From a virus (Duplodnaviria; Heunggongvirae; Uroviricota; Caudoviricetes), in the IMG/VR virus record IMGVR_UViG_2874945390_000009: DNA of 50,212 nt; one strand, written 5' to 3'. This document shows positions 15,001 through 21,000 of this stretch, one piece after another; position 1 is the first letter of the stretch, and each line of letters opens with the position of its first letter. The position numbers were made by a program.

Positions 15001-18000
15001 CTGAGCACCACGGACTGTTTTTCATAATTAAACGTATCCTGTTTCAGAAACATCATGTTCTCCGGATGCAAAAAGCCCCGGATAACCGGGGCAATGATGA
15101 GTATCGTCCTGTTATGGTGCGCTGACGGTCACCGCAGCCACTGCCACAAACTCTCCGTCAGAGGTCATGCCCACGATGCTGACACTGCCCTGCTTCACGC
15201 CTTTCACCGTGGCCACAAGCCCGCTCAAGGTCACCGAAGCAGTCTGAGGATCTGACGAATGCACACTGATCGCTTTGTCACTGGCCCCGTCAGGTTTTAC
15301 TGTAAAGGTCAGTGTGGTGGTTGCTCCCGCTTTGACACTGACAGATGCCGGTGCCACCGTCAGTCCGGTAACACCCACGGTTTCAGCGCCCTCCTCTGCC
15401 AGATACGGACGCCCCACACCGCTGATTTTTACAGTACGGGTCATCACCTCTTTTGAGGTAATGGTTTTACCCAGTGAACTCAGCCAGCCACGGAAAACAT
15501 CAACCGTACCGTTGGGGTATTTGATACGAAACGCGCAGACTTCACCGGAATCGAACAACTGAACCAGTTTTTTCTGCCCGCTGTCACCCGGACGCCAGGC
15601 CAGCGTCGCCGAAGTATCACCGACGGATTTCTGCCCCTGGGTTGTCGTTTTCCAGTCTGCATCTTCATCATCGAGATAAGTGTCATCTTCTGCATCAGCG
15701 GTCATCTCGCCAGGTTGCAGATCCTTCACCATCGCAAGACGCAGCCAGTCAGTGTCCGACAAAGGGTTCGCAAATGCGTCGCCGTTGCCGGTATACATCC
15801 ATAACGTCGTTCCCGCACCTTTCGTTTTTGCCAGTGGATTTGGTGTGGTCATTACCACCTCCTTAATTCGTGTACGTGATCTGGTACGTGATTTCCGCCA
15901 TCGCCCAGGTGGCCATCTCATTATCACGTTGATAGTTAAAACCAAGTGGGATCAGGGTGTCGATGAGTCCGGAAAGTGCCGGTACATCATTCAGGGCCGG
16001 GAAAATGGTGCTCTCCATCCACATATCCAGCTCTGAATCCGGTGCCTGTGCCCGGATGAAGACGGCAATATGCAGAACAGCCTGCCAGTCATCTTCATCC
16101 GTCATTTTTCCGGTGTACTGAGCATCACTCAGCCACACCGCCACGGCAGGCAGTTCCTGCGCATCAATAAATGCCGGAAGCCCGTCAAAAAACGTGGCGC
16201 TGTCTCCACACTGTTCCCGAAGGCGTGCCAGTACGACCTGGCGGATCTGTGTATGTCGGTTCATCGGGTCAGCCATAACCTCAGTTGTTGTTTCAGTGCA
16301 TACCCCAGCTGTTTCGTAAGCGCCCCGAGAAGTACGTAGCGTAAGGATTATTTTACAGACGAGAAGTTCCAGGGCAGCAGTTCATGCACTTGGTTCGACG
16401 GCCAGTCATTGAGCTTCTCGATCACTTCGCGCAACCAGTCCTCCGGCTCCACTTCGTTCTGTTTGCAGGTGACCAGCAGACTGTAGATGATCGCCGCACT
16501 TTCTCCTCCCTTGTCTGAGCCGAAAAAGAGATAATTTTTTCTTCCAACCGCCACCGATCGTAACGCGTTTTCACCGATGTTGTTGTCTATTTCCACCCAG
16601 CCGTCACGACAGAACTCGTTCAGCGCATTCCAGTGATTCAGGATATAGTCGAACGCCTTCGCCATCTCCGCATGTTTCGACAGCGTTTTCCTCTGCAACT
16701 GTATCCAGTCGTACAACGACTGCATCAACTGGACGCTTCTGGCTTTTCTGACTGCAAGCCGTTCCTCTGCCGGACTGCCACGTATCTCCGCTTCTATGTC
16801 GTATAACTCTGCTATCCGTCTGAGCGCTTCCTGAGTCATTTCTGTCGGACGGCGCACATCCTCGTCATGGATTTTTCGGCGGGCGTGGGCCAGGCACCCG
16901 GCTTCCTTCACCCGGCCCGTTTCGTACAGTACGTTATAACCTGCATAGGCATCAGCCTGCAGTGCAGTACGCCCTGATACTTTGCCAGGTGGAGCTGCGG
17001 ATGTTCTCCTTTGCGATCTGCCGAATACGCGAACCAGACGGCTGCCGGCAGGGATGAACCCGCATTACGATCATCCCTGACGTATACCCACAGACGACCC
17101 GTTTTCGTCTTTCCGTTCCCCGGGGCCAGTACTTTCACCGGAGTGCCATCTGCGTGCACCTTTCCTGCCTCCAGAACATAGTCATTCAGCGCTATATACA
17201 GAGGACGGAGTTTGTCTGCCATTTCTGATACCCAGCGCACCATGGTATTACGGCTCAGCTCCACGCCCTGTCGCGCGTATATTTCTGACTGGCGATATAA
17301 AGGGATATGTTCCATATATTTGCTGACCAGGATCCGTGCAAGTAACCCTGCACTGGCATAACCGCGTTCGATCGGTTTAGGGGGAAGTGGTGCCTGAACG
17401 ATGACATCACACCGGCTACAGGCCAGTTTGGGACGTATGGTTTCGATAACTTTAAAGGCGGTATTAATGATATCCAGTTGCTCTGAGATTGTTTCCCCCA
17501 TTTCTTTCAGAACACCTCCACAGGCCGGGCAACTGGTTTCAGCAGGCAGAAGGCGATGTGTCTCCCGGGGAAGTTCTGCCGGCAGCGGTTTTCGTGAAGA
17601 TTTTCGTCCCGGGGATTCAGGCTTACTGGCGATCGGGTTTTCTGACGGGGGACTGGTGTCAGGTGAATCTGTGACTGACGATGCATCTTCCAGAAGATTT
17701 CTGGCTGTGTTCAGCCGGTTTTCCAGTTCCGACAGTCGTTTTTCTGCCTGTCGGATCTGATTTTCAAGCTTATGACGCTTTTTCTCTGAACTCTGGCCGA
17801 ACAACATACGACGCAACCTGTCGAGTTGCGCTTTCAGCCGTTCAATTTCCTGCTCATAGCCCGCGACCTGACAGGCATACTGTCGAAGCCGACTCTGTTG
17901 CTTACGCAACATGGCTTTAAGCAGCTCAATATCATCGGGGAGTTAATTGTTCATTCCCTTGTTTTATCACGGGTTATATCCGGATGCCAGGCCGTTCTGT

Positions 18001-21000
18001 CCGTTTGGGATGTTGCCACGCGATCCCCTCCAGTAGCATGGATAACTGAGCTGGCGTCAGGTGCACTTTCCCTTCCCGGGTCACCGGCCAGACGAAGCGG
18101 CCCCGTTCCAGGCGTTTGGCGAACAGGCATAACCCGTCACGATCGGCCCACAGTATTTTCACCATTTTGCCACTGCGGCCCCGGAAGACGAAGATATGCC
18201 CGGAGAACGGGTCATCTTTCAGCGTGTTCTGCACCTTCGAAGCCAGGCCATTGAAGCCACAACGCATATCTGTGATGCCAGCGATGATCCAGATTTTGGT
18301 ACCGGTCGGCAGCGTTATCATCGGATACCCCCTTTCATTTCGCGGATTAGCGCCCGTAACAGTTCCGGAGTGAGAGGGTCAAACAGTTTTACCACACCTG
18401 ATTTAAGATGCAGCTCGCACCGTGGGACGTTTCCGGGAGCCCCCTCAGGGCGCTCATCATGCTTGTTACGCCAGAAGGGATTTGTAACTGGTCTGGTCGG
18501 CTCCGGCGTATCAGTCAGTGCCACCGGGACAGGCATGCATTCCTGTATGTCATCATCGCTCAGTAAGCCGTCCTCGTACTGGCTTTTCCATTTAAACAGC
18601 AGGTTATTATTGATATCGTGTTCTCTGGCGATCCGGGCAACAACAGCCCCAGGCTGTAACGCCTGCTTAGCCAGACGGACCTTAAATTCACGGCTATAGC
18701 TGGTTCGCCGTTCTTTTCGCCATGAGCCTTCTCTGATTTGAGGCTCTGTTAATTCCTTCTTTCTGTTGGCATAAAGGATGGCGTCAAGTTGAGCGAATGA
18801 AACTGAATCGGGCAATGGCCATGCGATACCGGATGCAAGAAATCGCTGAAAAAGCGTATGTATTGTGGAATGACTGAGACCCAGACGCTGAGCGATGGCC
18901 CGGATGGTCAGTTTATCTTCAAATCTTAAACGCAGGGCATCAGGCAAATAAGAACGGAAGCAGGGAATATCTTTTGTTGTCTGGGAATTCATCGTTCGTG
19001 TCCATCTATATAGATGGGCGCGATTGTTGCCAGACAGGACAATTTTCACAAGACGTCGCTGATGGGGCGCTTACGCTGTTTCGGCATTTCCGCAGCAATG
19101 ATGCGGTCGCGGGCATCTTCAAATGCCTGTGTCAGCGGTCCGGACATCGGGATTTTCACCACATCAATGGGGTAACGATTTTTGCCGTCAATACGCCGCA
19201 TCACATGCCAGCGACCATTCGCCAGTTGCTGAATAAACGCATCCCGGAAAAGGTATTTCCCCACTTTCAGTACGCTGCCACGATGACGTGAGTTGCTGCC
19301 ATGCCGGGAGCGGGCCAGTCTGACCTGTGCGGTACCCAGCTTAATGGCGGGCAGGTTACCCCGGTTAACACGCATGCGGGCATACATTTTTCCTGAGGGG
19401 CTGGCTTTAAGCAGCCTGACACGCTCCCTGACCGTTTTCAGGGGAATACCTTTCACCTGGTTATCCCCGGCAACGGTATTCTGCGCAACCTGCCGTGTGG
19501 CGACAGAAACAATCTTTGCCGCCACACGGTTTACCGCCCATGCGCTGGCCTGTGGCACCATGCGGGTATCGAGGCTGTTCAGATTGCGGATGGCATTCTC
19601 AAGCCCCTTCATCCCACACCTCTTTACTCAATAAAGATCATTGGCTTACCGTTAAAGCGTTCATGCCGTGTGACCGTCCATTGTTGTCCGTCATAAACAA
19701 CGCGATCCCCGCGCCGTGGGCGGTATCCCGAAGAAAACACCACCAGAGAGACCGCAGGTCCGGACAGAGCATTCAGCTCTGCCAGTGTTTCTCCCGGGAT
19801 CACAGTCATATAGACATCATTAATCGAGGCTGTCTTTCCCATCTTTCTGACCGTGATCGCATCCATACGCGCTGCCAGCCGGGAAAAGGGATCAGACATT
19901 GAGTTTTACCGGTACTTCTTCTGCACTGGTTCCGGCATCTGCCCAGACAACCCCGACCAGCGGATCAGAGCCGCTGTTAGTCAGCTGAACTTTTCCGGAC
20001 TTCAGATAAACCTTCTTACCCGTTTTCATGTCATCCGTTTTCAGCTTAGGCAGCATAAACACACCTTCGGTCATGCCGTCGCCTGTTTCACCCTGTGGAA
20101 TATCGGTCAGCGCCACCGCAAAAACATCACCCACCTGCACCAGATCTCCGCTGCTGATGGCTGCACTGGCAACAATCGCCACCGTTTTTCCTTCTTCTAC
20201 AAAATTCTTTGCCATAACTGTCTCCGCACAGCCCCGTTCAGGGGCTGATTTCAGGTACAAAAAAAGCCCTTACGGGCCATCAGAGTTGTTATCTGCGACG
20301 TTTACGCCGTACATTTCACCAGACCGCGGTGATCAACTGGCGCGACACCAGCGTCAATACGCACTTTCGTTGTCACGCCATCCACACTGAAGCCCTCCAT
20401 CTGATCAATATATGGCGTATCCACACCGTTGAGATAAGCCACTTCAATCGTATCGGAGCCTTTGGACGCAGCCAGGTAGAAGGTGGTCTGGCTGTTATCA
20501 TCAAGACGAGGCTCTGCAATAACGGTCGCAAAATCTTTCACCGGGTTAATAATACCGGCGTTAATGTCAGCCCCCTTGACACTTGAGGAGCGAATGACCT
20601 GGTTAGCAACAGACTCCATCGCCGTCGGTACCAGTACGAACGCAGGACGAATATTCAGATGACGCTCACCCTCTTTCTGAACACGCATCAACTGGCGGGC
20701 TTTATCCAGCGATGCCACGTCCATTGCAGCGCTCTCCAGTACGTTTGCATGTTTCGCTTTATCGAACAGACTTACATTATCTGTGGAGATTTTCGGGTTA
20801 GACGTCAGAATGGCATAAACCAGATCGGCAATAGTGGATTTCGCCGCACGGCCCAGTTTCATCGGGACATCGGTCAGCATATTCAGATCATCGTTGATAA
20901 TGGCCTGACGGGTGATACTGAACAGTTCACCATAGGTCGCCAGTGCAATCGTGGCCTGTTTATCTCCGGTAGTAACGTATTTATATTCCGCCCCTTCACG

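What the first reader, a model, noticed from the sequence alone, without database searches (positions are those of the whole stretch)
16308..19082. IS66-family element inserted into the 3' end of tail gene Z
A 2759-bp IS66-like element with an exact 8-bp duplication GCTGTTTC replaces the last ~13 codons of Z with 9 IS-encoded codons and separates Z from U; the displaced Z end and the Z-stop/U-start overlap can be reconstructed beyond the IS. The IS transposase is itself frameshifted. The insertion probably impairs tail completion and is polar on downstream tail genes.
Basis: seen in the sequence. Interest (0 to 1): 0.4.

Follow-up and report, generated by a model that had tools for sequence, protein, structure and literature searches.

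The report
ISSfl3 insertion in prophage tail gene Z
A known mobile element (ISSfl3, IS66 family) has jumped into the end of the tail-completion gene Z of a decaying lambda-like prophage of Shigella boydii, which is an ordinary, already understood kind of event.

Summary
Window 16316-19074 is a 2759-bp copy of ISSfl3 (IS66 family): perfect 11-bp terminal inverted repeats GTAAGCGCCCC, tnpA-tnpB-tnpC, and an exact 8-bp target duplication GCTGTTTC (16308-16315, 19075-19082). It lies in the lambda-type tail-completion gene Z, on the same strand as the phage late genes. Removing the IS and one repeat copy restores a 194-aa Z that matches the whole Pfam Minor_tail_Z profile. It also restores the ATGA overlap of the Z stop with the U start. 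This empty site is contiguous in 1842 complete E. coli genomes (up to 99.7% identity). The occupied site was found in none of them. It occurs in Shigella boydii CP026836.1 (100% identical, the likely source) and one draft assembly.

- 15 codons, not about 13, are replaced by 9 IS-encoded codons. They remove about 40% of a conserved C-terminal helix.
- tnpC carries three changes: a stop at codon 4, D270G, and a 5-bp tandem duplication that causes the frameshift.
- Strong polarity is unsupported. No terminator signal exceeds chance, the IS is co-oriented, and the late operon is Q-dependent. Loss of Z-U translational coupling is the likelier effect.
- The tape-measure gene is independently frameshifted by a 43-bp deletion, so the tail module is dead regardless.

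Ordinary prophage decay; low interest.

The parts
19046..19612 (-). Chimeric Z' ORF, 188 aa. Codons 1-179 are phage Z (tail completion protein). Codons 180-188 (RKRPISDVL) and the stop (19046-19048) are read from the IS end.
   Evidence: Pfam PF06763 Minor_tail_Z, E 1.5e-67, covering profile positions 1-182 of 190.
19075..19082 (.). Target-site duplication, copy next to the tnpA end (GCTGTTTC).
16316..19074 (-). ISSfl3 copy (IS66 family), 2759 bp, with genes on the minus strand, co-directional with the phage late genes.
   Evidence: 99.5% identical to an intact 2754-bp copy annotated 'IS66-like element ISSfl3 family transposase'.
19064..19074 (.). Terminal inverted repeat at the tnpA-proximal end (reverse complement of GTAAGCGCCCC).
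   Evidence: (pair I22).
18318..18992 (-). tnpA, accessory protein, 224 aa from the ATG used in the reference annotation.
   Evidence: NCBIfam NF038385 IS66_access_TnpA, 283.9 bits; Pfam HTH_Tnp_1. Two substitutions against the reference copy.
17974..18321 (-). tnpB, IS66 accessory protein, 115 aa, apparently intact.
   Evidence: Pfam PF05717 TnpB_IS66, E 5.4e-39; NF033819.
16348..17954 (-). tnpC pseudogene (DDE transposase): E4* (TAA at 17943-17945), D270G (17146), and a frameshift at about codon 329.
   Evidence: Alignment to the intact 534-aa TnpC. Pfam DDE_Tnp_IS66 is split over two ORFs.
16964..16968 (.). 5-bp tandem duplication (ACTGC on the coding strand) that frameshifts tnpC and explains 2759 bp versus 2754 bp.
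   Evidence: Absent from all 70 matching places in complete E. coli genomes.
16316..16326 (.). Terminal inverted repeat at the tnpC-proximal end (GTAAGCGCCCC).
16308..16315 (.). Target-site duplication, copy next to the tnpC end (GCTGTTTC).
16261..16308 (-). Displaced 3' end of Z: codons 180-194 (LGYALKQQLRLWLTR) plus the TGA stop, which overlaps the U start codon (ATGA).
   Evidence: Reconstruction. Same residues in the empty-site relative and a conserved motif in lambda, Fels-1, mEp043, Providencia and Vibrio phages.
15863..16264 (-). U (tail terminator), 133 aa from the ATG that overlaps the Z stop. Intact, but cut off from Z translation.
   Evidence: Pfam PF06141 Phage_tail_U, E 1.1e-60. 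Start as annotated in the empty-site relative.

Best explanation
A copy of the known IS66-family insertion sequence ISSfl3 transposed into the last 45 nt of the coding sequence of Z. Z is the lambda-type tail completion gene of an ipaH-carrying lambdoid prophage of Shigella boydii. The insertion made the 8-bp target duplication usual for the family.

Consequences:
- Z now ends in 9 IS-encoded residues instead of its 15 native C-terminal residues. This removes about 40% of the predicted C-terminal helix (shown).
- U no longer overlaps the stop codon of a translated Z (shown). Its translation is probably reduced (inferred).
- By analogy with lambda Z mutants, particles made from this prophage would look complete but have much lower infectivity (inferred).

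The IS copy has since lost its own transposase through a stop at codon 4, D270G and a 5-bp duplication. It cannot move by itself. It could at most be moved in trans or serve as a recombination target (inferred).

The insertion is one of several lesions in a prophage that is decaying, as is usual in IS-rich Shigella genomes. The others are a 43-bp frameshifting deletion in the tape-measure gene, a possible frameshift in the helicase gene, and two IS3-family copies.
For: - Structure of the element: size, inverted repeats, target duplication and three ORFs.
- Identity with ISSfl3: 99.5% to an intact annotated copy.
- Empty site contiguous in 1842 E. coli genomes, best 99.7%, with Z and U annotated as overlapping genes.
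- Occupied site in 0 of 5426 E. coli genomes. It is present in CP026836.1 (100% over 12,567 bp) and in draft QWSV01000117.1, whose contig ends inside the IS. CP026836.1 matches, by assembly number and size, the genome listed as Shigella boydii in PMC12679885.
- Reconstructed Z matches Pfam Minor_tail_Z over 1-190/190 at 248.1 bits. The chimeric Z matches 1-182 at 227.6 bits.
- C-terminal motif conserved: P177, L180, Q186, Q187, R189, L190 and L192 are invariant in 24 homologues. The motif is also visible in lambda-like, Salmonella, Providencia and Vibrio phages.
- AlphaFold2 model (pLDDT 82.4): N-terminal helix 2-45, beta domain, C-terminal helix 157-193.
- Literature: lambda gpZ is the prototype tail completion protein. 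Z-less virions look normal but are about 500-fold less infectious. In phage 80alpha the N- and C-terminal helices of the tail completion protein bundle with the tape-measure N-termini (PMC11784142, PMC11661146).
- tnpC lesions; the duplication is absent from other copies.
- Other lesions in the prophage.
Against: - No experiment shows that the chimeric Z is inactive. A shortened helix with a foreign tail might keep partial function.
- The order of events (IS insertion versus tape-measure deletion) is unknown, so the IS may have hit an already dead tail module.
- The effect on U expression is inferred from gene overlap only.
- The location and contacts of gpZ in lambda-type tails are not solved: there was no PDB sequence or fold match. 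The role of the C-terminal helix is therefore by analogy with 80alpha.
Confidence: 0.93

Rival explanations
1. The insertion is strongly polar. Transcription of the late operon stops inside the IS, so U, V, G/T, H and the tip genes are not expressed.
For: 2.76 kb of foreign DNA now lies between Z and U. tnpC carries an early stop and a frameshift, which leaves poorly translated stretches where Rho could act.
Against: - The IS is co-oriented with the operon.
- Terminator-like hairpins number 2 against 4.1 expected by chance, and only one weak site is on the coding strand.
- A Q-family antiterminator gene lies upstream on the same strand. Q-modified polymerase resists intrinsic and Rho-dependent terminators in lambdoid phages (established knowledge).
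- tnpA and tnpB are intact and begin 54 nt after the Z' stop.
Confidence: 0.2
2. The insertion has no functional consequence because the prophage was already defective when the IS arrived. It is a passenger in dead DNA.
For: The tape-measure gene has a 43-bp frameshifting deletion. The helicase gene has a 1-bp deletion. Two IS3-family copies sit in the early region.
Against: The order of events cannot be read from one genome. The head, portal, terminase, V, U and J ORFs are full length, so decay is recent. This reading does not conflict with what the element is, only with whether it mattered.
Confidence: 0.4
3. Assembly artefact: the IS was placed in Z by mis-assembly of a repeated element.
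For: ISSfl3 is multicopy in related genomes (up to 17 matching places per genome), and repeats can confuse assemblers.
Against: - There is an exact 8-bp duplication of a sequence that is single-copy in the empty site.
- The same Z-IS junction is present in a second, draft assembly.
- This copy has private mutations not seen in other copies.
Confidence: 0.02
4. The split tnpC reflects programmed frameshifting, as in IS3 or IS1, rather than a mutation.
For: Two consecutive ORFs together cover the DDE_Tnp_IS66 profile.
Against: Intact ISSfl3 and related copies encode a single 534-aa TnpC. The shift is caused by a 5-bp tandem duplication absent from all 70 matching places in E. coli genomes. There is also a stop at codon 4.
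Confidence: 0.01

Closest known systems
ISSfl3 (IS66 family, first named in Shigella flexneri; annotated by NCBI as 'IS66-like element ISSfl3 family transposase')
   Same: 99.5% nucleotide identity over the full length to an intact copy in E. coli FDAARGOS_943. Same ends, and the same tnpA-tnpB-tnpC order and sizes.
   Different: This copy is 5 bp longer (tandem duplication) and its tnpC carries E4* and D270G. It is a non-autonomous, decayed copy.
Classical IS66-family elements (IS66, IS679, ISPsk01 and others)
   Same: Three ORFs: TnpA, TnpB and a DDE transposase TnpC. Inverted repeats begin with GTAAGCG (PMC12888890). 8-bp target duplication (own knowledge of the family, ISfinder).
   Different: TnpA here is the longer form, with an extra N-terminal HTH (HTH_23) in front of the HTH_Tnp_1 domain. 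This is shared with other ISSfl3-like copies and is not special to this locus.
Lambda gpZ / gpU (tail completion protein and tail terminator)
   Same: Z is 48% identical to lambda-type Z over its full length and matches the whole Pfam profile. The gene order FII-like, Z, U, V, G, T, H and the Z/U overlap are as in lambda-like phages.
   Different: The head module here is a ClpP-capsid fusion type, not lambda E/D. Z is truncated and chimeric.
IS-mediated prophage decay in Shigella
   Same: Several IS copies and small frameshifting deletions in a lambdoid, ipaH-carrying prophage.
   Different: Nothing distinctive was found.

Membership tests
IS66 family insertion sequence | DDE transposase TnpC with IS66-type domains (leucine zipper, zinc finger, DDE_Tnp_IS66, C-terminal element) | tested here: met
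   Pfam LZ_Tnp_IS66, zf-IS66, DDE_Tnp_IS66 (two halves) and DDE_Tnp_IS66_C. NCBIfam transpos_IS66, 236 and 193 bits. The gene is a pseudogene.
IS66 family insertion sequence | Accessory genes tnpA and tnpB upstream of tnpC, with tnpA/tnpB overlapping | tested here: met
   NF038385 IS66_access_TnpA and NF033819 IS66_TnpB. tnpA ends at 18318 and tnpB starts at 18321, a 4-nt overlap.
IS66 family insertion sequence | Terminal inverted repeats beginning with GTAAGCG | tested here: met
   GTAAGCGCCCC at both ends, 11/11. The motif is cited for the family in PMC12888890.
IS66 family insertion sequence | 8-bp target-site duplication | tested here: met
   GCTGTTTC on both sides, single copy in the empty site. 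That 8 bp is the family norm is from my own knowledge (ISfinder).
ISSfl3 (isoform level) | Near-identity in nucleotide sequence to the named element | tested here: met
   99.5% over 2754 bp to a copy that NCBI names ISSfl3 family. The ISfinder reference sequence itself was not available here.
ISSfl3 (isoform level) | Ability to transpose autonomously | tested here: not met
   tnpC has E4*, D270G and a +5 frameshift. Activity itself cannot be tested with these tools.
Lambda gpZ tail completion protein (Pfam Minor_tail_Z) | Full-length match to the family profile | tested here: met
   Reconstructed Z: profile positions 1-190/190, 248.1 bits. Present-day chimeric ORF: 1-182 only.
Lambda gpZ tail completion protein (Pfam Minor_tail_Z) | Position between the head-tail joining gene and the tail terminator U, upstream of the tube gene V | tested here: met
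   Order Gifsy-2/FII-like (19624-19899), Z, [IS], U, V (Phage_TTP_12), G, T, tape measure.
Lambda gpZ tail completion protein (Pfam Minor_tail_Z) | Function in making tails infectious | not testable with these tools
   Known for lambda from the literature only.

The most novel reading that the evidence does not exclude
The chimeric Z' and the IS-separated U might still be made and partly functional. The co-oriented IS would then act as a read-through spacer rather than a block. In that case the locus would be a natural experiment showing that the last 15 residues of the gpZ C-terminal helix, and Z-U translational coupling, are dispensable. Alternatively, the decayed ISSfl3 copy could still be mobilised in trans by intact copies elsewhere in the genome.
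Probability: 0.1. Interest if true: 0.2.

Novelty: already known. Interest (0 to 1): 0.08.

Why it matters
It matters little beyond annotation.
- It marks this Shigella boydii prophage as tail-defective.
- It gives a clean, datable ISSfl3 insertion that could serve as a lineage marker for the clone. It is absent from 5426 complete E. coli genomes and from the GTDB representatives.
- It is one more example of how IS expansion and small deletions inactivate ipaH-carrying prophages in Shigella while the cargo effector gene stays in place.
- The truncated gpZ could be a convenient natural allele for anyone studying the still unlocated lambda tail completion protein.

Tried and rejected
- Two exact-pattern scans of GTDB species representatives found nothing: one for the Z-IS junction and one for the tape-measure deletion junction. 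The source was identified through the exact chimeric protein instead.
- CP026836 is not in the annotated collections. The species name comes from a table in PMC12679885.
- A PDB sequence search with Z gave no match. Foldseek of the Z model against the PDB gave no match with E <= 0.001. The role of the C-terminal helix could therefore not be mapped on a solved structure.
It was redone with database homologues.
- The promoter scan found no sigma-70-like site in or around the IS, against 2.8 expected. The idea that the IS drives U from an outward promoter was dropped.
- Programmed frameshifting in tnpC was rejected.
- Literature searches for ISSfl3 gave only passing mentions.
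Full report
**1. The observation**

The phage genes in this part of the window lie on the minus strand. Reading 15600-19800 and computing on it gives the following.
- GCTGTTTC occurs at 16308-16315 and again at 19075-19082.
- The 2759 bp between them (16316-19074) begin with GTAAGCGCCCC and end with its reverse complement.
- The repeat finder reports the same inverted pair (I22).
- The 11-mer has no other perfect match in the 50-kb window.
- The octamer occurs four times in the window on both strands, two of which are these copies.
- An exact 8-mer abutting both ends of an element with inverted repeats has a chance probability of about 1.5e-5 (own arithmetic).

**2. What the inserted element is**

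The three ORF sets on the minus strand match the following families:
- IS66 TnpA (18318-18992; NF038385, 283.9 bits);
- IS66 TnpB (17974-18321; PF05717, E 5.4e-39);
- IS66 DDE transposase TnpC, split over 16908-17912 and 16348-16911. The two halves carry LZ_Tnp_IS66, zf-IS66, the two halves of DDE_Tnp_IS66, and DDE_Tnp_IS66_C.

Megablast against 5426 complete E. coli genomes finds full-length relatives in 36 genomes. The best are 99.4-99.6% identical and are annotated 'IS66-like element ISSfl3 family transposase', mostly in enteroinvasive E. coli chromosomes and invasion plasmids. An intact copy (NZ_CP065615.1, locus L001) is 2754 bp and encodes a single 534-aa TnpC.

The window copy differs from L001 by ten substitutions and one 5-bp insertion. 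In tnpC these are:
- GAA to TAA at codon 4 (T at 17945);
- D270G in the conserved HADDTPV stretch (17146);
- a tandem duplication of ACTGC at 16964-16968, about codon 329, which shifts the frame.

When the duplication is removed, the TnpC translation differs from the reference only at E4* and D270G. An 81-nt probe over the duplication hit 70 places in 51 E. coli records. All had the 5-bp gap (93.8% identity) and none had the duplication.

So this is a decayed, non-autonomous ISSfl3 copy. The frameshift is a private mutation, not a programmed one. TnpA has two substitutions and TnpB one, and both are full length.

**3. What it inserted into**

- The ORF 19046-19612 matches Pfam Minor_tail_Z (E 1.5e-67), but only over profile positions 1-182 of 190.
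- The ORF 15863-16276 is Phage_tail_U (E 1.1e-60).
- Upstream is a Gifsy-2/FII-like head-tail gene. Downstream are the tail tube gene V (Phage_TTP_12 plus Big_2), G, T and the tape measure.

Deleting the IS and one repeat copy gives a 194-aa Z that matches the profile over 1-190/190 with 248.1 bits. Its stop codon overlaps an ATG of U (CGATGAAC). That ATG is the U start annotated in the relative with the empty site, where Z is 2566-3150 and U is 3147-3548 in locus L003.

The chimeric protein shares residues 1-179 with the reconstructed Z. It then reads RKRPISDVL from the IS end in place of LGYALKQQLRLWLTR. So 15 codons are replaced by 9, not about 13.

**4. Empty and occupied sites elsewhere**

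- A 293-nt reconstruction of the uninterrupted Z-U junction is contiguous (at least 80% covered in one place) in 1842 of 5426 E. coli genomes. The best matches are enteroinvasive strains at 99.7%.
- In CFSAN029787 the two window flanks align to one continuous stretch and overlap by 9 nt. That is the single GCTGTTTC plus one further base that matches by chance.
- A 400-nt probe over the U-side junction is never covered by more than 55% in any E. coli genome.
- The junction 35-mer is absent from the GTDB species representatives.
- The exact chimeric Z protein is on record in two NCBI assemblies. One is CP026836.1 (GCA_002950135.1, 5,106,737 bp), which is 100% identical to the window over 12,567 bp and is evidently the source. 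The other is the draft contig QWSV01000117.1, one mismatch in 6592 bp, which ends inside the IS as draft contigs do at repeats.
- PMC12679885 lists GCF_002950135.1 as a Shigella boydii ATCC strain of that same size.

**5. Likely consequences for Z**

A tblastn of the reconstructed Z against phage records finds 165 records. Lambda-type phages match at 48% identity over the full length.

In an alignment with Z of a lambda-like phage, Fels-1, mEp043, a Stx2a phage, a Providencia phage and a Vibrio phage, the C-terminal motif PK(E/Q)L..A(L/M)..Q(L/V)(R/K)(L/M/I) is recognisable throughout. It is missing only from the window's protein.

In 24 database homologues, P177, L180, Q186, Q187, R189, L190 and L192 are invariant.

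An AlphaFold2 model (mean pLDDT 82.4, pTM 0.72) has three parts: a long N-terminal helix (2-45), a beta domain, and a C-terminal helix (157-193). The insertion removes residues 180-194, about 40% of that helix, and adds a proline-containing tail.

No solved structure matches Z by sequence or by fold. This agrees with the literature, which says that gpZ has not been located in lambda reconstructions (PMC10721106, PMC12617516).

The literature also states the following.
- gpZ is the prototype tail completion protein.
- Z-less lambda virions look normal but are about 500-fold less infectious (PMC11784142, PMC11661146).
- In phage 80alpha, the N- and C-terminal helices of the equivalent protein form a five-helix bundle with the three tape-measure N-termini (PMC11661146).

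By analogy, the truncation probably weakens or abolishes Z function. This step is inferred, not shown.

**6. Polarity**

- The IS genes run in the same direction as the late operon.
- The consensus scan finds no promoter-like site (2.8 expected) and two terminator-like sites (4.1 expected). Only one weak site is on the coding strand, inside tnpC.
- The prophage encodes a Q-family antiterminator (31940-32761, PF03589, E 6.2e-55) upstream on the same strand. In lambdoid phages Q-modified polymerase reads through terminators (established knowledge).

Strong transcriptional polarity is therefore not supported, although it is not excluded, because tnpC is poorly translatable.

What is certainly lost is the ATGA coupling of U to Z. 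The nearest translated ORF now ends at 16348, 84 nt before the U start. The only Shine-Dalgarno-like GAGG lies 14 nt before that ATG. Reduced U translation is a reasonable inference.

**7. Context**

The window is a whole lambdoid prophage. It runs from an ipaH-type NEL effector gene (1137-2600) past the tail fibre genes to an integrase (49139-50212). Its tail genes are 98.5-99.7% identical to those of a prophage of enteroinvasive E. coli CFSAN029787 that carries ipaHe at the same end.

Against that relative, the window shows further lesions.
- The tape-measure gene lacks 43 bp between two copies of CAGTCAGCAGGCA. It is split into ORFs of 643 and 366 aa.
- The DnaB-like helicase gene has lost one T, creating a run of eight G. 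It is split into 273 + 190 aa. This one could be a sequencing error.
- Two inverted 1264-bp IS3-family copies sit between the repressor and the integrase.

The tail module would therefore be non-functional even without the IS. The order of the lesions cannot be told from one genome.

**8. Comparison with what is known, and verdict**

Every defining feature of an IS66-family element that could be tested is met: three genes, GTAAGCG ends, 8-bp duplication. At 99.5% identity the element is ISSfl3.

The target gene is a regular member of the gpZ family, in the regular gene order. IS insertions and small deletions in Shigella prophages are a familiar form of genome decay.

Nothing here departs from known biology. 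Interest is low. The specific insertion may be useful as a clonal marker and as a natural C-terminal truncation allele of gpZ.

Noticed in passing
window 11359-14387 (break near 12474-12501): The tape-measure gene is split into two ORFs (643 and 366 aa) by a 43-bp deletion between 13-bp direct repeats CAGTCAGCAGGCA, relative to the intact 1013-aa gene of the E. coli CFSAN029787 prophage. This is a second, independent inactivating lesion in the tail module.
   Followed up: yes
window 33386-34776 (about 33966): The DnaB-like replicative helicase gene is split (273 + 190 aa) by loss of one T, turning GGGGTGGGG into a run of eight G. It may be a real frameshift or a homopolymer sequencing error.
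   Followed up: partly
window 42318-43581 (-) and 46456-47719 (+): Two inverted 1264-bp IS3-family copies (orfA 100 aa plus orfB 272 aa), 99.4% identical to each other. They flank about 2.9 kb that includes an SPFH/Band 7 gene (44867-45697), and lie between the cI-like repressor and the integrase. They could mediate an inversion.
   Followed up: partly
window 1137-2600 (+): An ipaH-type effector ORF (LRR plus NEL E3 ligase domain, 487 aa from a TTG start) lies beyond the tail fibre genes. The EIEC relative carries a frameshifted ipaHe at the same position. Whether the copy here is full length was not checked.
   Followed up: no
window about 19612-26785 compared with L006: Mosaic joint: Z and everything downstream are 98.5-99.7% identical to the CFSAN029787 prophage. 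The head module here (ClpP-capsid fusion, cement protein, Gifsy-2-like gene, lambda-type portal and terminase) has no nucleotide match to that prophage's lambda-like E/D head genes. The switch falls at the start of Z.
   Followed up: partly
window 31721-31796 (-): A single tRNA-Met (CAT) gene lies just downstream of the Q antiterminator gene, where the EIEC relative has four tRNA genes (Ile, Arg, Thr, Gly).
   Followed up: no
window 18318-18992 (-): ISSfl3 TnpA is a long form (224 aa) with an extra N-terminal HTH_23-type helix-turn-helix in front of the usual HTH_Tnp_1 domain. This is shared with related copies.
   Followed up: no
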